This document shows positions 4,949 through 56,914 of a stretch of DNA of 64,000 bases, piece by piece. The DNA is from Escherichia coli (GTDB lineage: Bacteria; Pseudomonadota; Gammaproteobacteria; Enterobacterales; Enterobacteriaceae), in the NCBI RefSeq assembly GCF_009931435.1, contig NZ_CP043414.1; one strand, written 5' to 3'. Both the position numbers and the translations under genes were made by a program. The notes beneath the pieces are model-generated. The model saw only the letters and a list, made by a program, of their open reading frames with translations. It ran no database searches and had not been told where the DNA came from. Each line of letters opens with the position of its first letter. Position 1 is the first letter of the stretch.

Positions 4949-4955
4949 AAAACAC

Positions 4956-9580: not shown

Positions 9581-9619
9581 AACTTCTTTGATGCTTCGCG
9601 CTTTTTATCCGTAAAAAGC

Positions 9620-9650
9620 TATAATGCACTAAAATGGTGCAACCTGTTCA
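9620..9650 (+). promoter_or_regulatory. glnL promoter with overlapping NtrC operator
   Basis: tataat immediately followed by TGCACTaaaaTGGTGCAa. Confidence 0.6.
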
Positions 9651-9662
9651 GGAGACTGCTTT

Positions 9663-10712
9663 ATGGCAACAGGCACGCAGCCCGATGCTGGGCAGATCCT
9701 CAACTCACTGATTAACAGTATTTTGTTAATTGATGACAACCTGGCAATCCATTACGCCAACCCCGCCGCGCAACAACTACTCGCCCAAAGCTCCCGCAAA
9801 TTGTTTGGTACGCCGTTACCGGAACTGTTGAGCTACTTCTCATTAAATATCGAGCTGATGCAAGAAAGTCTGGAGGCGGGGCAAGGTTTTACCGATAACG
9901 AAGTGACGCTGGTGATCGACGGTCGCTCGCATATCCTTTCTGTGACGGCCCAGCGTATGCCGGACGGCATGATCCTGCTGGAGATGGCACCGATGGATAA
10001 CCAGCGCCGCTTAAGTCAGGAACAGCTACAGCACGCCCAGCAGGTTGCTGCCCGTGATTTAGTGCGCGGCCTGGCGCATGAGATTAAAAATCCGCTTGGC
10101 GGTTTACGTGGCGCGGCCCAGTTGCTCAGCAAAGCATTACCTGACCCGTCACTGCTGGAATATACCAAAGTGATTATTGAACAGGCGGATCGGTTGCGAA
10201 ATCTGGTCGACCGTCTGTTGGGGCCGCAACTGCCCGGTACGCGCGTTACCGAAAGTATTCACAAAGTGGCTGAACGCGTGGTGACGCTGGTGTCGATGGA
10301 ACTGCCGGACAACGTGCGGTTGATTCGTGATTACGACCCCAGCCTGCCGGAACTGGCGCACGACCCGGATCAAATTGAACAGGTATTGCTGAATATTGTG
10401 CGCAATGCGCTACAGGCACTGGGGCCGGAAGGTGGTGAAATCATTCTGCGTACCCGCACCGCGTTTCAACTGACCTTACACGGCGAGCGCTATCGGCTGG
10501 CGGCGCGGATTGATGTGGAAGATAACGGGCCAGGCATTCCGCCTCATTTGCAGGATACGCTGTTTTACCCGATGGTCAGCGGCCGCGAAGGTGGCACCGG
10601 GCTTGGCTTATCCATCGCCCGTAATTTGATTGATCAGCATTCAGGCAAAATTGAATTTACCAGTTGGCCAGGTCATACCGAGTTCTCGGTTTACCTGCCT
10701 ATCAGGAAATAA
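9663..10712 (+). CDS. glnL: nitrogen regulation sensor histidine kinase NtrB
   Basis: 349 aa; H-box HEIKNPLGG; HATPase motifs. Confidence 0.97.
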
Positions 10713-10723
10713 AGGTGACGTTT

Positions 10724-12133
10724 ATGCAACGAGGGATAGTCTGGGTAGTCGATGACGATAGTTCCATCCGTTGGGTGCTTGAACGTGCGCTCGCTGGAGC
10801 AGGTTTAACCTGTACGACGTTTGAGAACGGCGCGGAAGTGCTGGAGGCGCTGGCGAGCAAAACACCGGATGTACTGCTTTCAGATATCCGTATGCCGGGA
10901 ATGGACGGGCTTGCGCTGCTCAAGCAGATTAAACAGCGCCATCCGATGCTTCCGGTCATCATTATGACCGCACATTCCGATCTGGATGCTGCCGTCAGCG
11001 CCTATCAACAAGGGGCGTTTGATTATCTGCCCAAACCGTTTGATATCGACGAAGCCGTGGCGCTGGTTGAGCGCGCCATCAGCCATTATCAGGAACAGCA
11101 GCAACCGCGTAATGTTCAGCTTAACGGCCCGACGACCGATATCATCGGCGAAGCGCCAGCCATGCAGGACGTGTTCCGGATTATCGGTCGGCTTTCACGT
11201 TCTTCTATTAGCGTGCTGATTAACGGCGAATCCGGCACCGGTAAAGAACTGGTCGCTCATGCCCTGCATCGCCACAGTCCTCGAGCCAAAGCGCCGTTTA
11301 TCGCGCTGAATATGGCGGCTATCCCGAAGGATTTGATCGAATCAGAACTGTTCGGTCACGAGAAAGGCGCGTTTACCGGCGCGAATACCATTCGTCAGGG
11401 GCGTTTTGAACAGGCCGATGGCGGCACGTTATTCCTCGATGAAATTGGCGATATGCCGCTCGATGTACAGACGCGTTTGCTGCGCGTGCTGGCAGACGGT
11501 CAGTTTTATCGCGTTGGCGGCTATGCGCCGGTGAAAGTGGATGTGCGGATTATCGCTGCGACCCATCAGAATCTCGAACAGCGGGTACAGGAAGGCAAGT
11601 TCCGTGAGGATTTGTTCCACCGCCTGAACGTTATCCGCGTTCATCTGCCGCCGCTGCGTGAGCGTCGGGAAGATATTCCCCGTCTGGCACGCCATTTTTT
11701 ACAGGTTGCCGCGCGCGAACTGGGCGTAGAAGCGAAGTTGCTGCATCCGGAAACCGAAGCCGCGCTGACGCGTCTGGCATGGCCGGGTAACGTGCGCCAG
11801 CTGGAAAACACCTGCCGTTGGTTAACGGTGATGGCCGCCGGGCAGGAAGTGTTGATTCAGGATTTGCCTGGCGAACTGTTTGAATCAACGGTTGCGGAGA
11901 GTACTCCGCAAATGCAACCGGACAGTTGGGCAACGCTGTTAGCGCAGTGGGCAGACAGAGCGCTGCGTTCCGGTCATCAAAATTTGCTTTCCGAAGCGCA
12001 GCCTGAGCTTGAGCGGACGTTACTGACGACCGCGTTGCGACATACGCAGGGGCATAAACAGGAAGCTGCGCGGCTACTTGGCTGGGGGCGTAACACCCTG
12101 ACGCGGAAGTTAAAAGAGCTGGGGATGGAGTGA
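10724..12133 (+). CDS. glnG: sigma-54-dependent response regulator NtrC
   Basis: Start chosen at the ATG giving [12 protein letters not shown] (the ORF-track start at 10664 overlaps glnL); receiver domain, [11 protein letters not shown]+ motif, C-terminal HTH. Confidence 0.97.
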
Positions 12134-12244
12134 TTCACAGCTTGTGTGTAAAGATTGATTATTGAGCGCAAATTGCTGGTATTTTGCGCTTTACTGTTCC
12201 GATAAGTTCAGTATGATCTTGCCCGGAAAACGGGGAGAGTCATT

Positions 12245-12355
12245 ATGCTGGAATCAATAATTAATCTGGTATCGAGTGGCGCAGTTGACAGCCACACACC
12301 GCAAACTGCCGTTGCTGCCGTGCTGTGTGCTGCGATGATTGGGCTGTTTAGCTGA
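12245..12355 (+). CDS. yshB: small membrane protein, 36 aa (below the ORF-track length cutoff)
   Basis: ATG at 12245 preceded by ggggagag RBS; translation MLESIINLVSSGAVDSHTPQTAVAAVLCAAMIGLFS; position between glnG and hemN as in K-12. Confidence 0.7.
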   Translation: MLESIINLVSSGAVDSHTPQTAVAAVLCAAMIGLFS

Positions 12356-12361
12356 AGCTCG

Positions 12362-12520
12362 TTGTTTATGCCGGATGCGGAGAAAGTCGTAGGCCTGATA
12401 AGACGCGACCAGCGTCGCATCAGGCATCATGCTCAGATGCCGGATGCCGGATGCCGGATGCCGGATGCCGGATGCCGGATGCAGCGTAAACGCCTTATCC
12501 GGCCTACAAAAGCAATAATT
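12362..12520. repeat. REP/BIME cluster containing a 6-copy tandem heptamer (atgccgg)
   Basis: REP consensus units plus atgccgg x6 at 12437-12478. Confidence 0.75.
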
Positions 12521-12618
12521 TCAACAGGTTTTCTTAACCAGCGCATCAGGCAATCTTGTTCTCAGCACATTGATGGCGCTTTCGTTTTCTACTTTGTAAA
12601 CGAAGCGCCATTCACCAT

Positions 12619-13992
12619 TTAAATCACTCGTGAGAACTGCTGCATCCGCGCTTTCTGGCGCAGATAGGTATCAAAGCACATGCAAATGTTGCGGATCAGC
12701 AGGCGACCTTTCGCCGTTACCTGAATCCCCTTCTCATCCACATCCACCAGCCCATCTTTTGCTAACGGGGCAAGCAGCTTGAGATCTTCTGCAAAGTAGT
12801 CAGCGAAGTGCAAATCCCACTGTTGCTCAATGGGGGCATAATCCAGACGGAAGTTGCAGATGAGCGACTTAATCACATCGCGACGAATACAGTCATCACG
12901 CGTTAGCGCAATACCACGCCACAGCGCATTGCCTTGTTCATCCACTTGCTGATAGTACTGCTTCAACTCTTTCTGATTCTGCGCGTAGCAGTCGCCAATC
13001 ATGCTAATGGCTGAAACGCCCATCCCCAGCAGATCGGTATCGCCCTGAGTGGTGTAGCCCTGGAAGTTACGATGAAGCACGCCTTCACGTTGGGCCACCG
13101 CCAGCTCATCATCCGGGCGAGCAAAGTGATCCATACCGATAAACTGATAGCCCGATTGTGTCAGGAAGGCGATGGTTTCCTGCAGGATATCGAGTTTTTG
13201 CTGCGGACTCGGCAGGTCAGCATCTTTGATTTTACGCTGAGCAGCAAAAATGGTCGGCAAATGCGCGTAGTTAAAGACACTCAGGCGATCGGGGTTAAGT
13301 TCCGCCACGCGTTTCAGGGTAAAGGCGAAACTCTCCGGCGTCTGTTTCGGCAGGCCGTAAATCAGGTCGATGTTGGTGGAAGTAAAGCCAATCTCACGCG
13401 CATGGTTAAGCAGTGCAAAGATGAACTCTTCATCCTGCTCGCGGTTAACCAGACGTTGCACTTCTTTGTTGAAGTCCTGCACGCCCATGCTCAGGCGATT
13501 AAAGCCTTCGGCGCGTAAATGATCGAGTACATCCAGTTCGATTTCCCGCGGATCGACTTCGATCGAAATCTCCGCATCGGCATTGAACTGGAAGTTTTCG
13601 CGCAGCAACTTCATCAGTCGGCTGATTTGCGCTTTGTTCAGATACGTCGGCGTACCACCGCCCCAGTGCAATTGGCTGACGTGACGCCCGGCGAACAGCG
13701 GTGCACGATGGACGATTTCTTGCTCCAGCGCGTCCAGATACTGATCGGCCTTGTGCTGCTGGCGAGTAACAATCTTATTGCAACCGCAGAAGTAACAAAG
13801 CTTATGGCAGAACGGGATATGTACGTAGAGAGATAATGGACGCTCAGGATAGCGCGCCACGGCTTGTAAAAACGCCTGTTCGCCGAAGTCTTCTGAAAAC
13901 TCCAGCGCGGTCGGGTACGAGGTGTATCGTGGCCCGGAATAGTTATATTTCTGGATCAGGGCCAGATCCCAGTCGATTTGCTGTACAGACAT
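12619..13992 (-). CDS. hemN: oxygen-independent coproporphyrinogen III oxidase (radical SAM)
   Basis: CxxxCxxC radical-SAM motif (HIPFCHKLCYFCGCN); start taken at MSVQQIDW (457 aa). Confidence 0.95.
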   Translation of the reverse strand: MSVQQIDWDLALIQKYNYSGPRYTSYPTALEFSEDFGEQAFLQAVARYPERPLSLYVHIPFCHKLCYFCGCNKIVTRQQHKADQYLDALEQEIVHRAPLFAGRHVSQLHWGGGTPTYLNKAQISRLMKLLRENFQFNADAEISIEVDPREIELDVLDHLRAEGFNRLSMGVQDFNKEVQRLVNREQDEEFIFALLNHAREIGFTSTNIDLIYGLPKQTPESFAFTLKRVAELNPDRLSVFNYAHLPTIFAAQRKIKDADLPSPQQKLDILQETIAFLTQSGYQFIGMDHFARPDDELAVAQREGVLHRNFQGYTTQGDTDLLGMGVSAISMIGDCYAQNQKELKQYYQQVDEQGNALWRGIALTRDDCIRRDVIKSLICNFRLDYAPIEQQWDLHFADYFAEDLKLLAPLAKDGLVDVDEKGIQVTAKGRLLIRNICMCFDTYLRQKARMQQFSRVI

Positions 13993-45997: not shown

Positions 45998-46010
45998 TTC
46001 CGGTCTCCTG

Positions 46011-46766
46011 TCAGAACTTATAACCACGATGCAGCGCCACAACCCCTGCCGTCAGGTTGTAATAGTCGACACTTTCGAATCCAGCATCCTGCATCATAGC
46101 TTTCAGGGTGTCCTGATCGGGATGCATGCGGATAGATTCAGCAAGATAACGGTAGCTGTCAGCGTCGTTCGCGACCAGTGAGCCAATACGCGGCAGCACA
46201 TGGAAGGAGTAAGCGTCATAGGCCTTACTTAACGGCTCGATAATCGGCTTCGAGAACTCAAGCACCAGCAGTCGGCCGCCAGGTTTCAGAACGCGATACA
46301 TTGAACGCAGAGCTTTATCTTTGTCAGTGACGTTACGCAGACCAAACGAAATGGTGATGCAATCAAAGGTGTTATCCGGGAACGGCAGCGCCTCAGCGTT
46401 CGCCTGAACATACTCAACGTTGCCAATCACACCAATATTACGCAGCTTCTCGCGGCCCATTTTGAGCATGGATTCATTGATATCAGCAAGGACCACTTTG
46501 CCAGTTTCACCCACCAGGCGGGAGAATTTCGCTGTCAGGTCGCCAGTACCGCCTGCCAGATCCAGCACGGTCTGCCCGCGGCGTACGCCACTGCAATCAA
46601 TCGTGAAGCGTTTCCACAAACGATGTATGCCAAAAGACATCAAATCATTCATGACATCGTATTTCGATGCCACGGAATGGAAAACGTGGGCGACCATATC
46701 CGCTTTTTGTTCCTTCGCGACGGTCTGAAAACCAAAGTGCGTCGTTTCTTGTGACTTATCCACCAT
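46011..46766 (-). CDS. ubiE: ubiquinone/menaquinone C-methyltransferase
   Basis: 251 aa; SAM-binding motif [10 protein letters not shown]. Confidence 0.96.
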
Positions 46767-46860
46767 CTCAATGCCTGCTCATCAAAAAATTGTTCCAGAA
46801 GTGTAACAGATTGGGCGTCGATGCCCTAGATTTCTACCCGGCTTAACTACCCCCAATGGG

Positions 46861-48288
46861 CTAGCGCGACTGCTGATTATATTCATCATCGCGTTGATAA
46901 GCTTCATCATTCGGCTGCTCCGGTACCGACCGCAGTCGATACTCTTCATCCTGGCTCACCGCTTGTTCAGCCAAATCCGGATTAATCTCGCGTTTAATTT
47001 CTACTCCTAAACCGCGAAACGCTTCTGCTTGCGCCAGCACATTTCCGCGACCTGAAGAGAGTTTTTTCATTGCCTGACGATAGTTGTCCTGTGCTTTGTC
47101 CAGACTTTGACCAATCGCGGACATATCATCGACAAACAAGCGCATTTTGTCGTACAACTTGCTGGCACGATCGGCTATTTTCTGAGCGTTGCGGCTTTGA
47201 TGCTCATAGCGCCAGAGGTTGGCGATAGTGCGCAGCGCCACCAGCAGCGTGGTCGGGCTAACCAGCATGATATTGTTTTTCAACGCTTCGGTGATCAGCT
47301 CCGGCTGGCGGTCAAGCGCCAGTAAAAAAGCGGGTTCAACGGGAATAAACATCAGCACGTAATCCAGGGTTCGCAGCCCCGGCAGCTGTTGATAATCTTT
47401 GCGTCCCAGCAAACGGATATGGTTACGCACCGACGCGATATGTTCCTGTAGCGCGCTTTCGCGGGTGTAGTCGTCTTCTGCGTTGAAATAGCGTTCATAG
47501 GCGACCAGTGTCATTTTTGCGTCGATCACCACATCTTTTCCCTGCGGCAACCGCACGATGACATCCGGCTGCATCCGCGAGCGGGCGTCATTTTCGATGC
47601 TGACCTGGGTTTCATATTCATACCCTTCACGCAGACCGGAAGCCTCCAGCACACGCGTCAATACTACCTCGCCCCAGTTGCCCTGGGTTTTATTGTCGCC
47701 TTTCAGCGCACGCGTCAGGTTGATCGCTTCCTGGGCCATTTGCGCGTTGAGCTGCTGGAGATTGCGTATTTCGTGAGTCAGGGTATGGCGTTCTTGTGCT
47801 TCTTTACCGAAACTGTCCTGAACCTGACGACGAAAACCGTCCAGTTGTTCACGTAGTGGCGACAACAGGCTGTTCAGACTCTGACGGTTTTGCTCATCAA
47901 CCCGGCGATTGCTGTGCTCGAAAATACGGTTGGCGAGGTTTTCAAACTGCTCACTGAGGCGCTGTTCGCTGTTGATCATTTGGCGAATTTTATCGTCAGC
48001 ATGTTGCTGTACGGCCTCCATTCGCGTGGTGACTTCACGCAGATCCGCCTCCAGCGAGGTGTTAATGCTTTGCAGACTGCGCACTTCATTATTGAGTAAC
48101 TCGCACTCAGCACGCCAATGTTCGCTTTGGGTAATTTGTTGTTTTGCCGCACTTAACTCCGCGACCATCTCTTCACGTTCAGCGAATTGCTCGGCTTTTT
48201 GCTGCGCATGCTGATAACTGGCAATCAGCCAGCCAATCGCCACGCTCACCAACGCAATAACTGCGTAAACCATGATTGAGATATCCAC
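46861..48288 (-). CDS. rmuC: DNA recombination protein RmuC
   Basis: Start assigned to GTG at 48288 (VDISIMVYAVIAL, preceded by ggagg RBS) giving 475 aa; the ORF-track ATG at 48381 adds 31 aa. Confidence 0.88.
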   Translation of the reverse strand: MDISIMVYAVIALVSVAIGWLIASYQHAQQKAEQFAEREEMVAELSAAKQQITQSEHWRAECELLNNEVRSLQSINTSLEADLREVTTRMEAVQQHADDKIRQMINSEQRLSEQFENLANRIFEHSNRRVDEQNRQSLNSLLSPLREQLDGFRRQVQDSFGKEAQERHTLTHEIRNLQQLNAQMAQEAINLTRALKGDNKTQGNWGEVVLTRVLEASGLREGYEYETQVSIENDARSRMQPDVIVRLPQGKDVVIDAKMTLVAYERYFNAEDDYTRESALQEHIASVRNHIRLLGRKDYQQLPGLRTLDYVLMFIPVEPAFLLALDRQPELITEALKNNIMLVSPTTLLVALRTIANLWRYEHQSRNAQKIADRASKLYDKMRLFVDDMSAIGQSLDKAQDNYRQAMKKLSSGRGNVLAQAEAFRGLGVEIKREINPDLAEQAVSQDEEYRLRSVPEQPNDEAYQRDDEYNQQSR

Positions 48289-48404
48289 AACGCCTCCAGC
48301 CTCATTACTTACCCGCACAAAATAGAATTGTGCTGTACAAACGTCCAGTTTGAAAGAAGTTTCCTGCGAGGCGCTACGCAAAACGATCCTTAATTTTTAT
48401 TATT

Positions 48405-48444
48405 TTATCCCACAATATGAGACCTAGTTTATATTGTGGGATAA
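48405..48444. promoter_or_regulatory. perfect 14-bp inverted repeat, candidate operator
   Basis: ttatcccacaatat-N12-atattgtgggataa, 60-100 bp upstream of the IclR-family gene and about 120 bp upstream of divergent rmuC; no flanking U-run on either strand. Confidence 0.45.
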
Positions 48445-48503
48445 ATCACCTTTTCCCCACGTCATTATGTGGAACACTTCAGCAATATCATCAGGAGAAA
48501 CGT

Positions 48504-49271
48504 ATGGCAGATACCTCTTCAACCACCGCTGGCGCACAAACGTTATTACGCGGGCTCGCGGTTCTTAATGCTGTTTATAACGGCTGCCATGACCTGAAAA
48601 GTATCGGCGAGTTCACCGGCACGACCCGGAGCACAACCCATCGTTTAGTCACCGTTCTGGTGGAACAACGCTACCTGCGCCACGTCCCAACGCAGGGCTA
48701 CCAACTGGGCGCCAAACTGATCGAATTCGGTGCCAGAGCGCTGGAAAGCACCTCGCTGTACGAAGTTGCGCTGCCCGTTTTGCAACGCCTTGCCCGTTAC
48801 ACCCTGGACACCGTGCATCTGGGGATCGTTGAAGGCGACGAAGTGCTGTATCTGGAGAAGATCAACAGCCAGCGCGGGCTGGAAATGCGCTCACGCCCAG
48901 GCCATCGCATGCCACTGGCAATCACCGGCATCGGCAAGGCATTGATCCTCAACCGAACAGAAGAAGAGTGGCGCACGCTGTTTAAGACCTGTGGTGATGA
49001 AACAAAACTGGGCGCATTTATTCAGAACATGCGTCGTTATGCCGCGAGTGGTTTTGCTTTTGATCTGGAAGAGAACGAGCCGACTATCCGTTGCGTTGCA
49101 GCGCCGGTTTACAACGCCCGGGATGAAATTGTGGCGGCTATTTCTGTCGCCAGTACCACTACGTATATGTCACTGGCGCGTCTGGAAGAACTGGCACCTT
49201 ACGTCAAATCCTGTGCAGAAGAGATATCCGCTGAACTGGGCTGGGGTAAGCACGTCCGCAAAAATAAATAA
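48504..49271 (+). CDS. IclR-family transcriptional regulator
   Basis: Start chosen at MADTSSTTAGAQTLLRGLAVLNAV (aggag RBS); N-terminal wHTH plus C-terminal effector-domain pattern typical of IclR regulators. Confidence 0.8.
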   Translation: MADTSSTTAGAQTLLRGLAVLNAVYNGCHDLKSIGEFTGTTRSTTHRLVTVLVEQRYLRHVPTQGYQLGAKLIEFGARALESTSLYEVALPVLQRLARYTLDTVHLGIVEGDEVLYLEKINSQRGLEMRSRPGHRMPLAITGIGKALILNRTEEEWRTLFKTCGDETKLGAFIQNMRRYAASGFAFDLEENEPTIRCVAAPVYNARDEIVAAISVASTTTYMSLARLEELAPYVKSCAEEISAELGWGKHVRKNK

Positions 49272-49294
49272 ACCATGACTAAAGGAAACGGCTA

Positions 49295-50299
49295 ATGTCG
49301 GGAAACACCTCATTTATTGCCCTGGACTGGGGAACGTCATCGCTTCGGGCATGGCGTTTTGGCGATTCACCAAATCCACAAGAAAAACGTGAATTCCCGT
49401 GGGGGATCATGAAATTACCCTCCCAGGCAGCAACACGTGAGGACGCTTTCCACGATACGTTTTTACGTGTCTGCGGCGACTGGCTGGCACAATCCCCATG
49501 CCCGGTTCTGGCTTGCGGCATGATCGGCAGTGCGCAAGGGTGGCAACCCGCAGCTTATTTACCTTGCCCGGTCACTCTCGAGGGTCTGGCAAAGCAGTTG
49601 ACGCCTGTTATCCACCAGCAGCAGACAATGCTGCATATTATTCCTGGCGTGATTAAAGAAGGTGAAATGCCCGAAGTAATGCGTGGTGAAGAGACACAAA
49701 TCTTCGGTGCTATCTCGATGGAACCGGCCCTGCAAAACGCGATCCGCCAGGGTATGCCTGTGCTGATTGGCTTACCTGGCACACATGCGAAATGGGCGGT
49801 AGTTGAAAACAACACCATTACCGATTTCCGAACCTTTATGACTGGCGAGTTATTTGATGTTTTATCCCGCCATTCGATTCTCGGTGCCACCATGCGTTCG
49901 GGAGATGAACCGCACTGGGATGCCTTCACCCATGGGCTGACAGCAGCACAAGAGCATCATCAGACCGGATTATTATCGACGCTGTTTTCGACCCGTTCGC
50001 GCCTGCTGACCAGTAATCTTACGCCGTCCTCACAGGGGGATTACCTTTCAGGATTACTGATAGGCCATGAATTATGCGGTCTGGCATCCAGTTTGCTACG
50101 TGATTTACCCGCCACAACACCGATCGCCTTAATCGGTAGCGCCACTCTGAACAGCCGCTATTCACAAGCATTCAGCCACGTTTTTCCCGACAGACAGCTA
50201 CACGCCATTCCTAATGCCACTGAACAGGGGTTATGGCGAATCGCCCACGTTGCCGGGCTACTCTCCACCAACGCCAGGGAATGTACCCATGCCATTTAA
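49295..50299 (+). CDS. 2-dehydro-3-deoxygalactonokinase-like sugar-acid kinase (DgoK family)
   Basis: 334 aa; N-terminal IALDWGTSSLRAW and VMRGEETQIFGA / TGELFD..LS.HS.LGA / LSGLLIG motifs align with E. coli DgoK as I recall it. Confidence 0.8.
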   Translation: MSGNTSFIALDWGTSSLRAWRFGDSPNPQEKREFPWGIMKLPSQAATREDAFHDTFLRVCGDWLAQSPCPVLACGMIGSAQGWQPAAYLPCPVTLEGLAKQLTPVIHQQQTMLHIIPGVIKEGEMPEVMRGEETQIFGAISMEPALQNAIRQGMPVLIGLPGTHAKWAVVENNTITDFRTFMTGELFDVLSRHSILGATMRSGDEPHWDAFTHGLTAAQEHHQTGLLSTLFSTRSRLLTSNLTPSSQGDYLSGLLIGHELCGLASSLLRDLPATTPIALIGSATLNSRYSQAFSHVFPDRQLHAIPNATEQGLWRIAHVAGLLSTNARECTHAI

Positions 50300-50918
50300 T
50301 ACGCTTTTGCAAAAAACCGGGTTAGTCGCCATTTTACGCGGCGTGAAACCGGATGAGATTGTCGCCATCGGTGAAAAGCTGTATGCCGCTGGATTTCGCC
50401 TGATTGAGATTCCCATGAACTCGCCGGAGCCGTTGCAAAGTATCAGTTTACTGCGCGACGCCCTGCCTAAGGACTGCCTGGTCGGAGCCGGAACGGTGCT
50501 TTCGGTGGAGCAAGTCGTCGCGGTTAAAGAGGCTGGAGGCCAGATTATCGTGATGCCGCATTGCGATACTGCGGTGATCCGTCGTGCCCGTGCGCTGGGT
50601 ATGTATTGTGCGCCTGGCGTCGCTACGCCCACCGAAGCTTTTGCTGCCATTGAACATGGCGCCAATGCCATCAAGCTGTTCCCGGCTGAACAAATTACGC
50701 CTGAAGTCACCAAAGCCTGGCGTGCGGTTATTCCACAATCCGTTCCGATGTTACCGGTTGGCGGTATCACTCCAGACACAATGGCGCGTTATCTGAGCCA
50801 CGGCGCAAACGGCTTTGGCCTCGGTTCTGCGCTATATCGCCCCGGCATGACGCCAGAGCAAGTCTATGAAAATGCAGTACTGTTTATGAACGCATGGAAC
50901 AATTTAAATAGCAAATAA
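50289..50918 (+). CDS. 2-dehydro-3-deoxy-6-phosphogalactonate (KDPGal/KDPG) aldolase-like
   Basis: Start at MPFNTLLQKTGLVAILRG (209 aa), overlapping the kinase gene by 11 bp; AILRG...EIP.NSP...GAGTVL...GG(I/V)TP motifs of the Eda/DgoA family. Confidence 0.8.
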   Translation: MPFNTLLQKTGLVAILRGVKPDEIVAIGEKLYAAGFRLIEIPMNSPEPLQSISLLRDALPKDCLVGAGTVLSVEQVVAVKEAGGQIIVMPHCDTAVIRRARALGMYCAPGVATPTEAFAAIEHGANAIKLFPAEQITPEVTKAWRAVIPQSVPMLPVGGITPDTMARYLSHGANGFGLGSALYRPGMTPEQVYENAVLFMNAWNNLNSK

Positions 50919-50942
50919 CTGATAAATAAGGATATAAAAGCA

Positions 50943-51917
50943 ATGATAAAACATCTTACCTTACCGAAAAAAATGGCTGCAATGGTACTTCTTGCCGGCG
51001 CTGCCCTCAGCACTGCGCCTGTACAGGCGGCCTCCTGGCCAACCAAACAAATCGAGTTAGTCGTACCCTACGCGGCCGGAGGCGGTACGGACCTGGTTGC
51101 CCGAGCCTTTGCTGATGCCGCCAAAAACCATTTACCCGTCAGCATCGGGGTTATCAATAAACCTGGCGGTGGCGGCGCTATCGGCCTGAGTGAAATCGCC
51201 GCTGCCCGCCCTAACGGTTACAAAATGGGTTTAGGCACGGTTGAACTGACCACCCTTCCCAGCCTCGGAATGGTGCGTTTTAAAACCAGCGACTTTAAAC
51301 CCATTGCCCGTCTGAATGCGGATCCGGCGGCTATCACCGTCCGTGCCGATGCGCCGTGGAATAGCTATGAAGAATTTATGACTTACGCCAAAGCGAATCC
51401 CGGAAAAGTACGCATTGGTAACTCAGGCACCGGAGCAATCTGGCATCTGGCGGCAGCTGCACTGGAAGACAAAACGGGCGTGAAGTTTTCTCATGTCCCG
51501 TATGACGGCGCAGCCCCTGCCATTACAGGCCTGTTAGGCGGGCATATTGAAGCGGTTTCCGTAAGCCCAGGTGAAGTTATCAATCATGTGAAAGGCGGCA
51601 AGCTGAAGACACTGGTAGTGATGGCGGATGAACGTATGAAAACCATGCCTGACGTCCCGACGTTAAAAGAGAAAGGCGTTGATCTCTCCATCGGCACCTG
51701 GCGCGGCCTGATTGTGTCGCAAAAAACGCCGCAGGATGTGGTGGATGTGCTGGCAAAGGCAGCAAAAGAGACGGCTGAAGAGCCTGCATTCCAGGATGCA
51801 CTGCAAAAGTTGAATCTCAACTATGCATGGCTTGATGGTGCCAGCTTCCAGACCCAAATCAACGAGCAGGAAAAGTACTTTGACGAGCTTCTGACTCGCC
51901 TGGGCCTGAAAAAATAA
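50943..51917 (+). CDS. tctC: tripartite tricarboxylate transporter, periplasmic substrate-binding protein (TctC/Bug family)
   Basis: 324 aa; signal peptide then ASWPTKQIELVVPYAAGGGTDLVAR, typical Bug-family N-terminus. Confidence 0.8.
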   Translation: MIKHLTLPKKMAAMVLLAGAALSTAPVQAASWPTKQIELVVPYAAGGGTDLVARAFADAAKNHLPVSIGVINKPGGGGAIGLSEIAAARPNGYKMGLGTVELTTLPSLGMVRFKTSDFKPIARLNADPAAITVRADAPWNSYEEFMTYAKANPGKVRIGNSGTGAIWHLAAAALEDKTGVKFSHVPYDGAAPAITGLLGGHIEAVSVSPGEVINHVKGGKLKTLVVMADERMKTMPDVPTLKEKGVDLSIGTWRGLIVSQKTPQDVVDVLAKAAKETAEEPAFQDALQKLNLNYAWLDGASFQTQINEQEKYFDELLTRLGLKK

Positions 51918-51933
51918 TCCCGAGGTACGGTCG

Positions 51934-52440
51934 ATGAACACAAAACAGTCTGTTGCTCAACTCGCCGTACCGCACCGCAAGCGCCTTTCATCCACTGTGG
52001 TGGTGGCGCTGTTACTTTGTGTGGTTGCTGGCGCGGTGATAATTAATGCCGCTGATTTTCCAGCAACTGCCATTGAAACGGATCCCGGTGCAAGTGCCTT
52101 CCCTACTTTCTATGCCTGCGCTCTGATTGTGCTCGCTGTCTTACTGGTGATACGCGATCTTTTGCTGGCAAAACCAGTCCCTTGCGCCAACGCACAGGAA
52201 AAACCGGCATTAAGGAAAACGGCAACAGGAATTGCGGCAACCGCGTTTTATATTGTGGCGATGAGCTACTGCGGTTATCTCGTTACTACTCCTGTTTTCC
52301 TCATCGTCATTATGACGTTGATGGGCTACAGGCGATGGGTACTCACTCCGGGTATTGCGCTGCTGTTAACGGCAATCCTCTGGTTGCTGTTTGTCGAAGC
52401 GTTACAGGTGCCATTGCCTGTCGGCACATTTTTCGAATAA
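51934..52440 (+). CDS. tctB: tripartite tricarboxylate transporter small membrane subunit (TctB-like)
   Basis: 168-aa 4-TM protein between tctC-like and tctA-like genes. Confidence 0.7.
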   Translation: MNTKQSVAQLAVPHRKRLSSTVVVALLLCVVAGAVIINAADFPATAIETDPGASAFPTFYACALIVLAVLLVIRDLLLAKPVPCANAQEKPALRKTATGIAATAFYIVAMSYCGYLVTTPVFLIVIMTLMGYRRWVLTPGIALLLTAILWLLFVEALQVPLPVGTFFE

Positions 52441-52452
52441 CAGGGGCCTGCA

Positions 52453-53943
52453 ATGTTTGAAAGTGAACTTTTAACTCAGGGGTTTTCGACATTACTCAGT
52501 AATCCTCAGGCGCTGCTGTTTGCCACGTTTGGAGTGATGCTGGGTATTATGATTGGCGCTCTGCCTGGCCTGACAGCGACCATGGGTGTGGCGATTTTGC
52601 TGCCTTTCACCTACGGCATGGAGCCTGTTTCTGGCTTGTTGATGATTTGCGGTGTCTTTTTTGGTGGTGTGTATGGTGGTTCTATCACCGCAATTTTGCT
52701 CAAAATTCCCGGTACACCTGCCGCCGCTGCCACCGCCATTGACGGTTATGAGTTAACGAAGCAGGGAAAAGCCGGGCTGGCATTAAGTGCCGCCACGTTC
52801 TCTTCTTTTAGCGGTGGAACGCTCAGCATTATCGTATTGATGTTTCTCTCTCCGGTCCTTGCTAGTTGGGCGTTGAAATTTAGTGCCTCGGAGTCCTTCG
52901 CCCTGGCAACCTTCGGACTGAGCATTATTGCCAGTATTTCCGGTGAGTCGCTGATTAAAGGGCTGATCGCCGGGATTGGCGGATTAATGATCGCAACGAT
53001 AGGCCTCGATCCGATGGGCGGTTTTCCACGCTTTACGGGCGGGTTTGTGGAACTGATGAATGTGCCATTTATCCCGGTGATGATTGGTCTGTTTGCTGCT
53101 TCAGAAGCGTTCCGTTCTATGGAACAAAATCAGCATATTCGTCAGAGCGCGAACGTGGCTATCGGCAGTCTGTTACTGCCCTGGCAAACGCTACGCCGCA
53201 TCGCATTAACCATTTTGCGCTCATCAGGATTAGGGGTTTTTATCGGCATGATCCCCGGTGCGGGGGCAGATATTGCAGCTTTTGTTGCCTATAACGAAAC
53301 TCGTCGTTTCAGTAAGACGCCTGAAAACTTTGGTAAGGGTGAGATTAAGGCGGTGGCCTCCTGTGAGGCAGGCGCGAATGGCTGCACCGGTGGCGCATTG
53401 TTACCTATGCTGACGTTGGGGATCCCAGGCGATGCGGTAACTGCCATCATGCTGGGCGCGTTAACGTTACAAGGGATGCAGCCAGGCCCACTGATGTTTA
53501 CCGACCACGGCGATATGGTTTATACGTTATTTGTCGGCATGATCTTCTGTTACTTCATGCTGCTAGTTCTTGGACTGCTCTCTTTGAAAGTCATCGGTAA
53601 CGTGGTGAAAATTCCCGGCAATATTCTCACACCGATGATCCTCGCACTTTGTGTGGTCGGGACTTATGCGTTGAACAATAGCCTGTTTGATGTTGGCATT
53701 ATGCTGATTGCAGGCGTGGTGGGCTATTTCATGCAAAAAGGGGGATATCCGGCATCACCCGTAGTGCTGGCATTGATTATGGGGCCAATGGCGGAAAGTA
53801 ATTTTCGCCGTGCGCTGTCGCTTTCAGGGGGGTCACTCGACTTCCTGTATACCCGACCGATAACCCTGGCATTGCTGACACTGGCAGCCTTTACGCTACT
53901 GACGCCAATAATACGCAAAATTATGCGCTTACGGCGTCAGTAA
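52453..53943 (+). CDS. tctA: tripartite tricarboxylate transporter large permease subunit (TctA-like)
   Basis: 496-aa polytopic membrane protein with duplicated GxPGxxA / IPGxPA-type motifs. Confidence 0.85.
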   Translation: MFESELLTQGFSTLLSNPQALLFATFGVMLGIMIGALPGLTATMGVAILLPFTYGMEPVSGLLMICGVFFGGVYGGSITAILLKIPGTPAAAATAIDGYELTKQGKAGLALSAATFSSFSGGTLSIIVLMFLSPVLASWALKFSASESFALATFGLSIIASISGESLIKGLIAGIGGLMIATIGLDPMGGFPRFTGGFVELMNVPFIPVMIGLFAASEAFRSMEQNQHIRQSANVAIGSLLLPWQTLRRIALTILRSSGLGVFIGMIPGAGADIAAFVAYNETRRFSKTPENFGKGEIKAVASCEAGANGCTGGALLPMLTLGIPGDAVTAIMLGALTLQGMQPGPLMFTDHGDMVYTLFVGMIFCYFMLLVLGLLSLKVIGNVVKIPGNILTPMILALCVVGTYALNNSLFDVGIMLIAGVVGYFMQKGGYPASPVVLALIMGPMAESNFRRALSLSGGSLDFLYTRPITLALLTLAAFTLLTPIIRKIMRLRRQ

Positions 53944-53964
53944 TTGATATCGCTCCCCGACGTT

Positions 53965-54110
53965 GGGGAGTATGAGACTGATGACAAACGCTAAATTGCC
54001 TGATGCGCTGCGCTTATCAGGCCTACCACAGAAATGCAATATATTGAATTTGCATGCTTTTGTAGGCCGGATAAGGCGATCACGCCGCATCCGGTATGAA
54101 CAAAGGACAC
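53965..54110. repeat. REP/BIME elements at the island 1 / udp junction
   Basis: gcctgatgcgctgcgcttatcaggcctac and gtaggccggataaggcgatcacgccgcatccggtatg units. Confidence 0.65.
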
Positions 54111-54127
54111 GTTAACAACAATCGGAA

Positions 54128-54153
54128 TGCTCCCCTAAGCCAGGGAGCGTTTT
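54128..54153 (+). terminator. rho-independent terminator (plus-strand, ends tct operon transcription)
   Basis: ctcccctaagccagggag hairpin followed by a T6 run. Confidence 0.55.
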
Positions 54154-54918
54154 TTATTTCAGCAGACGACGCGCCGCTTCCACCACGATTTTCACCGCCT
54201 GGCTTTCGGTTTGTTTCATCGTCTCAGCATTCGGGATCTCTTGCTGGGTACGATTGACGATAACGCCCGCCACCATACCCGCACGCAGGCCCTGGCTTGC
54301 ACACATGGTCAGCAGGGTTGCAGATTCCATTTCATAGTTCATTACGCCCATCGCCTGCCACTCTTCCATAGAACCTTTAAAGTGACGGACTACACGACCA
54401 GAGTAAGTATCGTAACGTTCCTGACCCGGGTAGAAGGTATCAGAAGAAGCCGTCACACCAACGTGAGTGGTGGCACCAATTGACTTCGCCGCTTCAACCA
54501 GCGCGGTCGTACATTCGAAATCTGCGACAGCCGGGAACTCCAGCGGAGCGAAGTGCAGGCTCGCGCCATCCAGACGAACAGACGCCGTGGTCACCAGCAC
54601 ATCGCCGACATTGATATGCGGCTGGATAGCGCCCGTTGTACCGATACGCAGGAAGGTGCGAATGCCCAGCTGTGCCAGCTCTTCAACCGCAATAGAGGTA
54701 GACGGGCCGCCGATACCGGTAGAGCAGACGATAACAGGTTTACCATCCAGCTCTGCACGCCAGGTGGTGAATTCGCGGTGAGATGCCAGCTTAACCGGCT
54801 TATCCATCAGCGCGGCGATCTTTTCCACACGATCCGGGTCGCCAGGGACGATGGCAAGCGTAGCCCCTTGTAAATCGTTTTTAGTGAGGCCGAGATGAAA
54901 AACATCAGACTTGGACAT
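54154..54918 (-). CDS. udp: uridine phosphorylase
   Basis: [41 protein letters not shown]...; PNP/UDP family. Confidence 0.96.
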
Positions 54919-55179
54919 ATACAACTCCTCTGTGAATCGGTTTAGTCAGAAGAAGCAAAAAGACACTTTACCGAAGGGTTTAACATTTTTTCGTGACACT
55001 CATCACCTTGATGCAAATGCGTTGCATAAATTTACCCAGCAAAAGTGATGCGAATCACATAAATCACTCTTCATTCTGCATGACTGCATAAAAGATGAGC
55101 CGATTCAGGCAATGTGATTTGTTGCATGCTGACTATAGTTAACATTGCGCAACATTTTTATAAGGGTACGGAGAATACC

Positions 55180-55989
55180 ATGGCAACAACACAACAATCT
55201 GGATTTGCACCTGCTGCATCACCTCTCGCTTCGACCATCGTTCAGACCCCGGATGACGCGATTGTAGCAGGCATCACCTCTATCCCTTCACAAGGGGATA
55301 ACATGCCTGCTTACCATGCCAGACCAAAGCAGAGCGATGGCCTACTACCAGTGGTCATTGTAGTGCAGGAAATTTTTGGCGTGCATGAACATATCCGCGA
55401 TATTTGTCGCCGTCTGGCGCTGGAGGGGTATCTGGCTATCGCACCTGAACTTTACTTCCGCGAAGGCGATCCGAATGATTTTGCCGATATCCCTACGCTG
55501 CTTAGCGGTCTGGTAGCAAAAGTGCCTGACTCGCAGGTGCTGGCCGATCTCGATCATGTCGCCAGTTGGGCGTCACGCAACGGCGGCGATGTTCATCGCT
55601 TAATGATCACCGGATTTTGCTGGGGTGGGCGCATCACCTGGCTGTATGCTGCGCATAATCCACAACTGAAAGCAGCGGTGGCATGGTACGGCAAATTAAC
55701 CGGCGATAAGACGCTGAATTCACCGAAACAACCTGTTGATATCGCAACCGATCTTAACGCTCCGGTTCTCGGCTTATATGGCGGCCAGGATAACAGCATT
55801 CCGCAGGAGAGCGTTGAAACCATGCGCCAGGCGCTGCGGGCTGCTAATGCGAAAGCAGAGATTATCGTCTACCCGGATGCCGGGCATGCATTCAACGCCG
55901 ATTATCGCCCGAGCTATCATGCCGAATCTGCGAAAGATGGCTGGCAGCGAATGCTGGAGTGGTTTAAGCAGTATGGTGTTAAAAAGTAA
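55180..55989 (+). CDS. ysgA: dienelactone hydrolase family protein
   Basis: Start chosen at MATTQQSGFAPAAS (269 aa); alpha/beta hydrolase with nucleophile motif ITGFCWGG. Confidence 0.9.
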   Translation: MATTQQSGFAPAASPLASTIVQTPDDAIVAGITSIPSQGDNMPAYHARPKQSDGLLPVVIVVQEIFGVHEHIRDICRRLALEGYLAIAPELYFREGDPNDFADIPTLLSGLVAKVPDSQVLADLDHVASWASRNGGDVHRLMITGFCWGGRITWLYAAHNPQLKAAVAWYGKLTGDKTLNSPKQPVDIATDLNAPVLGLYGGQDNSIPQESVETMRQALRAANAKAEIIVYPDAGHAFNADYRPSYHAESAKDGWQRMLEWFKQYGVKK

Positions 55990-56245
55990 CGCCATAGCCG
56001 CTAAATCTGATGATTAAGCTCACACAATTTCAACGATTTTTTTAATCTCAAAACCATACAGCATCAAAAAATTTGTTGCTGTATGCCACTCTTTGACTCC
56101 CTTCACATTCGTCATCACACCACCTGTTGAATGCAAAAATTTCGTTGCTGTGCGGCAAACTTTTTTCCTGTTTTATGCCGCTTTTCTCCTGAATACTCGC
56201 TCTCAGAACAACTGGATCGTTTAAACATCAGACAGGAGATTTACC

Positions 56246-56914
56246 ATGACGCAATCCATTTTTCAGGCTCAACCCTTTGAATTACCTTTTGATCCGCGCA
56301 CAACTGCACTGGTCATGATCGACATGCAGCGTGACTTTGTCGAAGCAGGGGGCTTCGGTGAGGCACTGGGCAATGATGTTTCACTGGTACGCACGGCTAT
56401 CGCACCATGTACAGAGGTGCTGGCAGCCGCACGTCAAAAAGGAATTATGGTTATTCATACTCGTGAAGGCCATCGTGCAGACTTAAGCGACTGCCCGCCA
56501 GCCAAACTGACGCGCGGCGGAAAAACCTTTATTGGTGAACCAGGACCGATGGGACGCATTCTGGTCAGAGGTGAAGCGGGTCATGACATCATTCCTGAAC
56601 TGTACCCAGTGACAGGCGAACCGGTGATTGATAAGCCCGGTAAAGGCGCTTTTTATCAAACCGACTTACATCTGATTTTGCAAAACCACGGTATCAAGAC
56701 GCTGATAGTTTGTGGTGTAACAACCGAAGTTTGCGTAACCACCACCGTGCGCGAAGCAAATGACCGTGGCTATGAATGCATTATCCCGGAAGATTGTGTC
56801 GGCTCATATTTCCCGGAATTCCAGAAATATGCCCTCGAGATGATCAAAGCACAAGGTGCCATTTTCGGTTGGGTGAGTGATTCCAAAGCCATTATTGCAG
56901 GTCTGGAAGGCTAA
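56246..56914 (+). CDS. isochorismatase-family cysteine hydrolase (RutB/BiuH-like amidohydrolase)
   Basis: 222 aa; D-K-C triad context (ALVMIDMQRDF, DKPGKGAF, VCGVTTEVC) and a C-terminal FGWVSDS block resembling RutB as I recall it. Confidence 0.75.
   Translation: MTQSIFQAQPFELPFDPRTTALVMIDMQRDFVEAGGFGEALGNDVSLVRTAIAPCTEVLAAARQKGIMVIHTREGHRADLSDCPPAKLTRGGKTFIGEPGPMGRILVRGEAGHDIIPELYPVTGEPVIDKPGKGAFYQTDLHLILQNHGIKTLIVCGVTTEVCVTTTVREANDRGYECIIPEDCVGSYFPEFQKYALEMIKAQGAIFGWVSDSKAIIAGLEG

What the first reader, a model, noticed from the sequence alone, without database searches (positions are those of the whole stretch)
48405..53943. Island 1: IclR regulator, DgoK-like kinase, DgoA-like aldolase and TctCBA transporter inserted between rmuC and udp
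A six-gene co-directional operon separates rmuC from udp, which are adjacent in the K-12 order I recall. It couples a tripartite tricarboxylate-type transporter, uncommon in E. coli, to the kinase and aldolase steps of a De Ley-Doudoroff-type pathway under an IclR regulator. This suggests a dedicated uptake and catabolic module for a 2-keto-3-deoxy sugar acid.
Basis: partly seen in the sequence, partly recalled or inferred. Interest (0 to 1): 0.65.

Follow-up and report, generated by a model that had tools for sequence, protein, structure and literature searches.

The report
Accessory sugar-acid uptake and breakdown operon
Between rmuC and udp this Escherichia strain carries a real, intact six-gene operon (regulator, kinase, aldolase, three-part transporter) that most likely imports and splits a galactose-derived sugar acid; about a quarter of E. 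coli genomes, including BL21(DE3), carry it, it was already noted in the literature, and its function is untested.

Summary
Window 48504-53943 carries six tightly packed + strand genes: IclR regulator, DGOK-family kinase, KDPGal-type aldolase, TctC, TctB and TctA. They lie between rmuC and udp, which are adjacent in K-12. All six family calls were confirmed.

It is not rare. The islet is in about 1,450 of 5,426 complete E. coli genomes, including ST131, NU14, the type strain ATCC 11775 and BL21(DE3). A 2012 paper on APEC O1 noted it as a 5 kb islet of six ORFs of unknown function.

"Inserted" is not established. There is no tRNA, integrase, IS element, flanking repeat or GC anomaly. Silent-site divergence is in the range of the flanks. 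The same block sits at the same locus in E. whittamii, Buttiauxella, two Klebsiella species and Phytobacter.

The cassette recurs across alpha-, beta- and gammaproteobacteria, almost always without a dehydratase. A palindrome upstream of iclR, with TCCCA and TGGGA half-sites, is conserved among them.

[quoted passage not shown] The main rival is D-galactonate uptake using the core DgoD. The ligand is untested. This is a new member of a known kind, of moderate-to-low interest.

The parts
48384..54159 (.). Strain-variable segment (5,776 bp) that replaces 47 bp of the K-12 udp-rmuC spacer. The right junction lies at the udp stop codon.
   Evidence: Alignments with K-12, NU14 and 2013C-4282; sequence read directly.
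48404..48445 (.). Perfect 15-nt inverted repeat TTTATCCCACAATAT-N12-ATATTGTGGGATAAA, about 60-100 bp upstream of iclR. Candidate IclR operator overlapping the promoter region.
   Evidence: The arms are kept while the spacer varies among three E. coli alleles. Related palindromes with TCCCA and TGGGA half-sites lie upstream of iclR in most of the cassettes read (13 of 16 outside Brevibacillus). Binding was not tested.
48504..49271 (+). IclR-family transcriptional regulator (255 aa).
   Evidence: Pfam HTH_IclR plus IclR_C. NCBIfam best hits are BhcR, KdgR and PcaR, all below cut-off. Annotated as such in relatives.
49295..50299 (+). DGOK-family sugar-acid kinase (334 aa), predicted 2-keto-3-deoxygalactonate kinase. 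Paralogue of core DgoK.
   Evidence: Pfam DGOK 1.7e-89. PDB 3r1x and 3t69, E about 3e-36. 34% identical to K-12 DgoK. No NCBIfam model matched.
50289..50918 (+). KDPGal-type class I aldolase (209 aa). Paralogue of core DgoA.
   Evidence: NCBIfam NF006600 scores 322.9 bits against a cut-off of 207. PDB 2v81, E 1e-49. Glu37, Lys126, Ala11-Ile12 and Val154 equivalents are conserved. The role of these residues is from PMC4915726.
50943..51917 (+). TctC/Bug-family periplasmic solute-binding protein (324 aa) with an N-terminal signal peptide ending ...APVQA|AS.
   Evidence: Pfam TctC 2.5e-55. PDB 4x9t, E 6e-100, about 52% identity. N-terminal sequence.
51934..52440 (+). TctB small membrane subunit (168 aa, 4 hydrophobic segments).
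   Evidence: Pfam TctB 1.9e-20; hydropathy.
52453..53943 (+). TctA large membrane subunit (496 aa, at least 10 strong hydrophobic segments).
   Evidence: Pfam TctA 2.8e-151; hydropathy.
53953..53970 (+). GC-rich hairpin CTCCCCGAC/GTTGGGGAG just after the tctA stop. No T-run follows it here.
   Evidence: In NU14 the equivalent hairpin abuts udp and carries the T-run.
53975..54125 (.). REP/BIME-type repeated extragenic palindromes between tctA and udp. Present in the window and in strain 2013C-4282, absent from NU14.
   Evidence: Multi-copy in E. coli genomes, median 5 places per genome. Inverted REP-like arms. Sub-threshold Rfam hits to the naRNA4 and ES036 sRNA families. Absence in NU14.
54124..54153 (.). 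Terminator-like hairpin with a T-run next to the udp stop, placed between the convergent tctA and udp genes.

Best explanation
This is a self-contained, IclR-controlled catabolic operon: iclR, a dgoK-like kinase, a dgoA-like aldolase, and tctCBA.

Proposed mechanism:
1. The periplasmic TctC protein captures a six-carbon sugar acid of the galacto series, most likely 2-keto-3-deoxy-D-galactonate (KDGal) itself.
2. The TctB/TctA membrane subunits import it.
3. The DGOK-family kinase phosphorylates it at C6.
4. The KDPGal-type aldolase cleaves the product to pyruvate and D-glyceraldehyde-3-phosphate.
5. The IclR protein represses its own operon through the palindrome upstream of iclR until the sugar acid or a pathway intermediate is present.

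Shown here: gene content, family membership, catalytic and stereochemical residues of the aldolase, operon packing, purifying selection, and conservation of the cassette and its upstream palindrome across phyla.

Inferred: the ligand, the direction of regulation, and every activity.
For: - All six family assignments are strong.
- The aldolase passes NCBI's curated KDPGal-aldolase cut-off. It keeps the catalytic Glu37 and Lys126, and the Ala11-Ile12 and Val154 positions that set galacto-type stereochemistry (PMC4915726).
- The same six genes in the same order occur in at least 15 taxa of alpha-, beta- and gammaproteobacteria. No D-galactonate dehydratase lies within the 9-10 kb of flanking DNA read, wherever that much was available, in all but the Martelella/Marinicella pair.
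- In Brevibacillus, an orthologous TctCBA (TctC 66% identical) is joined to a PfkB kinase resembling KDG/KDGal kinases and an aldolase with the gluco-type Thr. So kinase type and aldolase stereotype co-vary around one transporter clade, again without a dehydratase. This matches the logic of B. subtilis kdgRKAT, where the transporter takes up the keto-deoxy acid itself (my knowledge).
- The host NU14 keeps an intact dgoRKADT operon. dgoD is in 5,014 of 5,426 genomes. Even so, the islet kinase and aldolase stay intact under purifying selection: dN/dS against NU14 is 0.19 and 0.04, at dS of 0.11-0.16. That fits a substrate that does not induce the core dgo operon.
- A palindrome with TCCCA and TGGGA half-sites is conserved upstream of iclR in most cassettes.
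Against: - No binding, transport or enzyme data exist. Ten literature searches found no functional study.
- In Martelella and Marinicella, the related TTT system sits next to dgoD and dgoA.
- In Rhodoferax, three of the Azospirillum genomes examined (a fourth has only the SDR nearby), Skermanella and Pseudoroseomonas, the cassette comes with a sugar-1-dehydrogenase-like SDR and a lactonase. Those genes imply a galactose to galactonate route whose dehydratase must be encoded elsewhere. So the lack of a dehydratase in the cassette does not prove that none is needed.
- A published genomic reconstruction assigned D-galactonate to an IclR-dgoK-TTT cluster (PMC5507952).
- A natural source of free KDGal in the gut or urine is not established.
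- A rough neighbour-joining tree does not separate cassette kinases from canonical DgoK.
Confidence: 0.47

Rival explanations
1. High-affinity D-galactonate uptake. TctCBA imports D-galactonate, the core-genome DgoD (or another dehydratase encoded elsewhere) converts it to KDGal, and the islet kinase and aldolase add lower-pathway capacity under separate IclR control.
For: - Martelella and Marinicella place the related IclR-kinase-TctCBA unit directly beside dgoK-dgoD-dgoA; the DgoD there scores 662 bits against a cut-off of 311.
- Alpha- and betaproteobacterial cassettes carry an orthologous SDR and lactonase, typical of galactose to galactonate conversion, with no dehydratase nearby.
- Leyn et al. 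2017 predicted D-galactonate for an IclR-dgoK-TTT cluster.
- E. coli hosts do carry dgoD.
Against: - In E. coli, imported D-galactonate would presumably induce dgoRKADT through DgoR (my knowledge). That would make the islet kinase and aldolase redundant, yet both are intact and under purifying selection in three deep lineages and in BL21.
- The enteric, Brenneria and Uliginosibacterium cassettes have no dehydratase, SDR or lactonase nearby.
- The Brevibacillus variant pairs the transporter with a KdgK-like kinase, not a gluconate route.
Confidence: 0.33
2. The same architecture acting on a different acid. Candidates are 2-keto-3-deoxy-D-gluconate, another keto-deoxy or keto-aldonate, or an unsaturated uronate product. 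In that case the kinase and aldolase have specificities not predicted by their family names.
For: - Apart from the ligand-free 4x9t, the closest solved relative of TctC is the Vibrio TTT-C (PDB 25hk, E 2e-64). It binds unsaturated alginate oligosaccharides.
- A GhrB-like 2-hydroxyacid dehydrogenase recurs beside the transporter in Martelella and Brevibacillus.
- Enterobacter adds an Fe-ADH and a second DGOK paralogue.
- The kinase matches no curated NCBIfam model.
Against: - The aldolase carries both galacto-type stereochemical determinants and passes the KDPGal-aldolase cut-off.
- Cassette kinases intermix with DgoD-linked DgoK in a rough tree.
- No lyase, isomerase or reductase is present in the E. 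coli islet.
Confidence: 0.15
3. A cryptic or decaying remnant with no current function in E. coli.
For: No phenotype has been reported. An RNA-seq table lists tctA only as mildly down-regulated in one EPEC isolate.
Against: All six ORFs are full length and of equal length in the window, NU14 and E. whittamii, with dN/dS of 0.02-0.34. They are also intact in BL21(DE3) and annotated intact in the other relatives examined.
Confidence: 0.03

Closest known systems
E. coli dgoRKADT operon (D-galactonate catabolism, lower De Ley-Doudoroff pathway)
   Same: A regulator, a DGOK-family kinase, a KDPGal aldolase and a transporter in one operon. The kinase and aldolase overlap in both. The islet aldolase is 46% identical to K-12 DgoA and the islet kinase is 34% identical to K-12 DgoK.
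   Different: The islet has no DgoD dehydratase. It has an IclR regulator instead of the GntR-type DgoR, and a binding-protein-dependent TctCBA instead of the MFS symporter DgoT. It coexists with dgoRKADT in the same genomes.
kdgRKAT of Bacillus subtilis and the KdgR-KdgT-KdgK-KdgA system of Dickeya (2-keto-3-deoxygluconate uptake and catabolism; from my knowledge)
   Same: The logic is the same: a regulator, a kinase, an aldolase and a transporter for the keto-deoxy acid itself, with no dehydratase. KdgR of the enterobacteria is also an IclR-family protein, and it is the second-best NCBIfam hit of the islet regulator.
   Different: That system is gluco-series: a PfkB kinase and an Eda-type aldolase with Thr161. 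The islet has a DGOK kinase and a Val154-type aldolase. Its transporter is KdgT, not a TTT system. The Brevibacillus variant of this cassette is the intermediate form.
IclR (GalR)-dgoK-TTT cluster of Salinivirga fredricksonii HL-109 (Leyn et al. 2017, PMC5507952)
   Same: An IclR regulator, dgoK and a TTT transporter are clustered. That prediction rests on genome context only.
   Different: There the predicted ligand is D-galactonate, and the cluster belongs to a De Ley-Doudoroff locus. I did not retrieve that locus, so orthology is untested. The Martelella locus resembles that description.
Characterised TTT systems: Salmonella TctCBA (citrate); BugD, BugE and Bug27; AdpC; TphC; Vibrio C42 TTT-C
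   Same: The three-component architecture and Pfam families are the same. PDB relatives include 25hk, 2f5x, 2dvz and 8hkb.
   Different: Per the 2018 review, nearly all characterised ligands are di- or tricarboxylates (PMC5812351). A monocarboxylic keto-deoxy hexonate would widen that range. The closest solved structure, 4x9t (about 52% identity), has no known ligand.

Membership tests
Tripartite tricarboxylate transporter (TTT, TctCBA) | Periplasmic TctC/Bug-family binding protein with an export signal | tested here: met
   Pfam PF03401 2.5e-55. PDB Bug/TctC relatives. N-terminal hydrophobic signal ending AQA|AS, read from the sequence.
Tripartite tricarboxylate transporter (TTT, TctCBA) | Adjacent small 4-TM TctB and large roughly 12-TM TctA subunits | tested here: met
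   PF07331 1.9e-20 and PF01970 2.8e-151. Four and at least ten strong hydrophobic windows respectively. Genes are contiguous.
Tripartite tricarboxylate transporter (TTT, TctCBA) | Binding-protein-dependent uptake of a carboxylate | not testable with these tools
   Needs binding and transport assays.
2-keto-3-deoxygalactonate kinase (DgoK, Pfam DGOK) | Full-length match to the DGOK family and to solved DgoK structures | tested here: met
   PF05035 1.7e-89. 3r1x and 3t69, E about 3e-36, over nearly the whole length.
2-keto-3-deoxygalactonate kinase (DgoK, Pfam DGOK) | Match to a curated equivalog model, or orthology to E. coli DgoK | tested here: not met
   No NCBIfam model matched. It is 34% identical to K-12 DgoK and coexists with it, so it is a paralogue. 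The rough tree does not resolve a separate clade.
2-keto-3-deoxygalactonate kinase (DgoK, Pfam DGOK) | ATP-dependent phosphorylation of KDGal | not testable with these tools
   Needs an enzyme assay.
KDPGal aldolase (DgoA) | Score above the curated family cut-off | tested here: met
   NF006600 scores 322.9 bits against a cut-off of 207.
KDPGal aldolase (DgoA) | Schiff-base Lys126 and proton-shuttle Glu37 | tested here: met
   Both are conserved in the alignment with K-12 DgoA. Their roles are from PMC4915726.
KDPGal aldolase (DgoA) | Galacto-type stereochemical determinants (Ala11-Ile12 in strand 1, Val154 in strand 7) rather than Pro19-Val20 and Thr161 of KDPG aldolase | tested here: met
   The window has LVAIL and PVGG; Eda has VVPVI and PTGG.
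IclR-family regulator | N-terminal HTH_IclR domain plus C-terminal IclR effector domain | tested here: met
   PF09339 9e-08 and PF01614 2.3e-37.
IclR-family regulator | Palindromic operator in its own promoter region | tested here: inconclusive
   A perfect 15-nt inverted repeat lies at 48404-48445. Related palindromes lie upstream of iclR in most of the cassettes read. No binding data exist.
dgoRKADT-type D-galactonate operon | D-galactonate dehydratase DgoD encoded in the cluster | tested here: not met
   There is no DgoD-like ORF in the islet, or within 10 kb, in E. coli and most other cassettes.
Horizontally acquired genomic island | tRNA or integrase at the border, IS elements, bracketing direct repeats | tested here: not met
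   No tRNA. Only short chance repeats. The six ORFs account for the whole interval.
Horizontally acquired genomic island | Composition or divergence that differs from the flanking core genes | tested here: not met
   GC is 0.49-0.57, like the flanks. dS against NU14 is 0.06-0.27 in the islet and 0.17-0.29 in the flanks.
Horizontally acquired genomic island | Presence/absence polymorphism among strains | tested here: met
   Present in 1,452-1,456 of 5,426 complete genomes. BL21(DE3) carries a B2-like copy in a K-12-like background.

The most novel reading that the evidence does not exclude
The islet is a dedicated high-affinity scavenging system for free 2-keto-3-deoxy-hexonates, meaning KDGal or a close epimer. 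These could be released by other microbes, or formed in the host from 3-deoxyosones and excreted in urine. On this reading the islet gives B2/ExPEC lineages a private carbon source, and it would be the first TTT system shown to carry a monocarboxylic keto-deoxy sugar acid.
Probability: 0.12. Interest if true: 0.6.

Novelty: new member of a known kind. Interest (0 to 1): 0.33.

Why it matters
If confirmed, this would assign a function to six genes carried by about a quarter of sequenced E. coli. Carriers include ST131 and NU14 (and, per the literature, APEC O1), the species type strain, and the workhorse BL21(DE3). Those genes have stood as "unknown function" since 2012.

It would also extend the known ligand range of TTT transporters to a monocarboxylic keto-deoxy sugar acid. 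And it would add a strain-specific nutrient to models of E. coli niche partitioning.

Because BL21(DE3) carries an intact copy and K-12 lacks it, the tests are simple. The finding does not bear on a long-standing open question.

Tried and rejected
They turned up only the 2012 note on the islet, one RNA-seq table line and context-based predictions for other bacteria. Apparent tctA/tctC hits in an ST405 paper were DNA strings. A paper comparing B and K-12 strains says nothing about these genes.
- PDB 4x9t as a guide to the ligand: it has no known ligand and is only about 52% identical. It is an outgroup to the cassette TctC clade.
- NCBIfam: no model for the kinase or the three transporter subunits.
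- Kinase neighbour-joining tree: it does not separate cassette kinases from DgoD-linked DgoK, so it cannot decide between KDGal and other substrates.
- Mobility signatures: no tRNA, no bracketing direct repeats, no composition shift.
- Rfam: no riboswitch or leader. Only sub-threshold hits to the naRNA4 and ES036 sRNA families, which I read as REP-derived.
- Sigma-70 consensus scan: no convincing promoter upstream of iclR, and fewer sites than in shuffles.
- Cross-tabulating islet presence against dgoD presence per genome was not possible with the summary outputs. Arithmetic gives only a lower bound: at least 1,040 genomes carry both.
- The genome-contig scan used exact E. coli TctA peptides, so absence from other species cannot be concluded. 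For example, Enterobacter hormaechei, known, was missed.

Full report
**1. What is there**

The interval holds six co-directional ORFs on the + strand:
- iclR. The ORF opens at 48417. The start used in related annotated genomes corresponds to 48504 and is preceded by AGGAG. It ends at 49271.
- A DGOK-family kinase, 49295-50299.
- An aldolase, 50289-50918, overlapping the kinase by 11 nt.
- tctC, 50943-51917.
- tctB, 51934-52440.
- tctA, 52453-53943.

Gaps of 23, -11, 24, 16 and 12 bp indicate a single transcription unit. rmuC (46861-48288) and udp (54154-54918) flank it on the minus strand. In K-12 MG1655, udp and rmuC are neighbours 140 bp apart.

Junction alignments show that 5,776 bp (48384-54159) stand where K-12 has 47 bp. 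The right junction falls on the udp stop codon. As a result, islet-bearing strains encode a Udp protein one lysine longer: 254 aa against 253.

**2. Family checks**

Pfam gave:

| Gene | Pfam family | E-value |
|---|---|---|
| iclR | HTH_IclR + IclR_C | 9e-08 / 2e-37 |
| kinase | DGOK | 1.7e-89 |
| aldolase | Aldolase | 1.2e-29 |
| tctC | TctC | 2.5e-55 |
| tctB | TctB | 1.9e-20 |
| tctA | TctA | 2.8e-151 |

- The aldolase passes NCBI's curated cut-off for KDPGal aldolase, 322.9 bits against 207. It aligns with E. coli DgoA (PDB 2v81, E 1e-49).
- The kinase matches the solved DgoK structures 3r1x and 3t69 at E about 3e-36, but no NCBIfam model.
- TctC has a signal peptide. TctB has four hydrophobic segments and TctA at least ten.
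- In an alignment with K-12 DgoA and Eda, the islet aldolase keeps Glu37 and Lys126. It has Ala-Ile in strand 1 and Val before the GG of strand 7, as DgoA does. Eda has Pro-Val and Thr there. A published mutational study shows that these two sites set KDPGal versus KDPG stereoselectivity (PMC4915726).

**3. How common, and already noticed**

- The whole block is in 1,452 of 5,426 complete E. coli genomes. The kinase-aldolase pair is in 1,456, of which 1,432 are at least 99% identical to the NU14 allele.
- Carriers include ST131, NU14, the type strain ATCC 11775, BL21(DE3) and T7 Express.
- Li et al. [quoted passage not shown] 6 ORFs with unknown functions" in APEC O1 (PMC3349570).
- RefSeq already names the products.
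- I found no functional study in ten full-text searches.

**4. Inserted, or lost elsewhere?**

Evidence against a recent insertion:
- Nothing marks a mobile element. There is no tRNA, no integrase or IS ORF and no bracketing repeat. GC is like the flanks.
- The window belongs to a divergent lineage. Its rmuC is about 95% identical to most E. coli and at least 99% identical in only 14 genomes.
- Between the window and NU14, islet genes differ by dS 0.06-0.27 and the flanks by 0.17-0.29. Against E. whittamii the figures are 0.04-0.34 and 0.24-0.56. So the islet has been diverging alongside its flanks in three deep Escherichia lineages.
- The same block lies at the same place in E. whittamii, Buttiauxella warmboldiae, Klebsiella indica, K. 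spallanzanii and Phytobacter massiliensis (where rmuC itself is missing). The rmuC-iclR spacer is 215-216 bp where measured: in the window, Buttiauxella and the K. indica-like contig.

Evidence for some exchange:
- Between genera, the islet proteins are more diverged than the flanking proteins: the kinase is 48-59% identical, against 79-96% for the flanks. Buttiauxella is the closest in the islet but the most distant in several flanks.
- BL21(DE3) has K-12-like ubiB, ubiJ and rmuC, but a B2-like islet, udp and ysgA. This shows that the block moves between E. coli lineages by homologous recombination of its flanks.

The direction of the original event is unresolved. "Old polymorphism maintained by loss and recombination" describes the data better than "island inserted into the K-12 order".

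**5. The cassette elsewhere**

- TctC relatives of 60-88% identity are found in many Proteobacteria and some Bacillota.
- The same six genes in the same order stand alone in Brenneria and Uliginosibacterium.
- In Enterobacter hormaechei, a divergent Fe-ADH and a second DGOK paralogue are added.
- In Rhodoferax, Skermanella and Pseudoroseomonas, the cassette is accompanied by an orthologous sugar-1-dehydrogenase-like SDR and an SGL-family lactonase. Both are also present in Azospirillum halopraeferens and A. soli; A. thermophilum has only the SDR nearby.
- In Martelella and Marinicella, IclR-kinase-TctCBA follows dgoK, an unknown gene, dgoD, dgoA and a GhrB-like dehydrogenase.
- In Brevibacillus, the order is IclR-TctCBA, a PfkB kinase (best matches are KDG/KDGal kinases), an aldolase with the gluco-type Thr, and a GhrB-like dehydrogenase.
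- Every aldolase linked to a DGOK kinase has the galacto-type Val.
- Apart from Martelella and Marinicella, no D-galactonate dehydratase lies within the DNA fetched, about 9-10 kb on each side where the contig allowed.

**6. Regulation**

A perfect 15-nt inverted repeat, TTTATCCCACAATAT-N12-ATATTGTGGGATAAA, lies 60-100 bp upstream of iclR. Among three E. coli alleles the arms are kept while the spacer varies.

Reading the upstream regions of 17 cassettes shows related palindromes built on TCCCA and TGGGA half-sites in most of them. Examples:
- Buttiauxella: AATCCCATATATAGGGAT
- Skermanella: TGTCCCACTATGTGGACA
- Uliginosibacterium: AATCCCATTATTTGGGAC

In the alpha- and betaproteobacterial cassettes, a conserved TTGACA box follows. 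I take this as the operator of the IclR protein, and autoregulation as the likely mode. Neither was tested.

**7. Mechanism and rivals**

[quoted passage not shown] The open point is the transported ligand.

I favour KDGal itself, for three reasons:
- The cassette is conserved as a unit without a dehydratase.
- The Brevibacillus variant mirrors the kdgRKAT design for direct KDG uptake.
- In E. coli, the islet kinase and aldolase persist under purifying selection beside an intact dgoRKADT. That is hard to explain if the imported compound were D-galactonate, which as far as I know induces the core operon through DgoR.

D-galactonate remains a strong rival:
- dgoD is linked in Martelella.
- The SDR and lactonase in the alpha- and betaproteobacterial cassettes imply a dehydratase encoded elsewhere.
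- An earlier genomic reconstruction made that prediction.

**8. Verdict**

The feature is real and the family calls are right. It is a widespread accessory operon that has already been annotated and noted, not a new kind of system. Its value is a cheap, well-posed experiment in BL21(DE3) versus K-12, and a possible extension of TTT ligand range.

Noticed in passing
window 53975-54125: A REP/BIME-type palindromic repeat lies between tctA and udp. It is present here and in strain 2013C-4282 but absent from NU14. It matches several places per E. coli genome (median 5) and gives sub-threshold Rfam hits to the naRNA4 and ES036 sRNA families. Similar GC-rich hairpins lie on either side of it (53953-53970 and 54124-54153).
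   Followed up: partly
window 54154-54159: The right junction of the variable segment coincides with the udp stop codon. Islet-bearing strains end Udp with ...RRLLK (254 aa), while K-12 ends with ...RRLL (253 aa).
   Followed up: yes
window 48334-48349: CTGTACAAACGTCCAG lies in the rmuC upstream region and is shared with K-12. It resembles a LexA box (CTGT-N8-ACAG) with one mismatch. From memory, rmuC/yigN has been listed among SOS genes. K. indica has a 10-nt perfect inverted repeat (TACAGCACAA/TTGTGCTGTA) in the corresponding rmuC-iclR spacer.
   Followed up: no
window 56246-56914 and beyond: Downstream of ysgA, the window has a cysteine-hydrolase gene, as NU14 and BL21(DE3) do (followed there by DUF2877 and fdrA). 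This is presumably the tkt1 island of Li et al. 2012. The window's closest relatives on rmuC (2013C-4282 and 2017-02-2CC) instead have tssD there, so the region is mosaic.
   Followed up: partly
window 46000-56000: The window comes from a divergent Escherichia lineage. Its flanking core genes are about 94-96% identical in nucleotides (dS 0.17-0.29) to both K-12 and B2. Its rmuC is at least 99% identical in only 14 of 5,426 complete genomes.
   Followed up: partly
window 50943-53943: Silent divergence is uneven inside the islet. tctC and tctB have dS of 0.04-0.11 against both NU14 and E. whittamii, while tctA has 0.27-0.34. This suggests an internal recombination mosaic.
   Followed up: no
L102 (BL21(DE3)) 4566-13518: BL21(DE3) carries an intact copy of the islet. 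Its ubiB, ubiJ and rmuC are K-12-like, but the islet, udp and ysgA are B2-like, which places a recombination breakpoint in or near rmuC.
   Followed up: yes
L004/L021 (Phytobacter massiliensis) 5546-7358: At the orthologous locus, Phytobacter has the six-gene cassette directly after ubiE. rmuC is absent.
   Followed up: no
L006 (Enterobacter hormaechei) 4079-6258: A second DGOK-family paralogue and an iron-type alcohol dehydrogenase are transcribed divergently from the cassette, and a second IclR gene follows tctA. This suggests an extended or different pathway in that variant.
   Followed up: partly
L036 (Selenomonadales MAG) 385-1656: A nickel-pincer-cofactor (LarA-type) isomerase, group 22, lies next to a TctCBA-aldolase-DGOK cluster. 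This hints at sugar-acid epimerisation upstream of the kinase in that organism.
   Followed up: no
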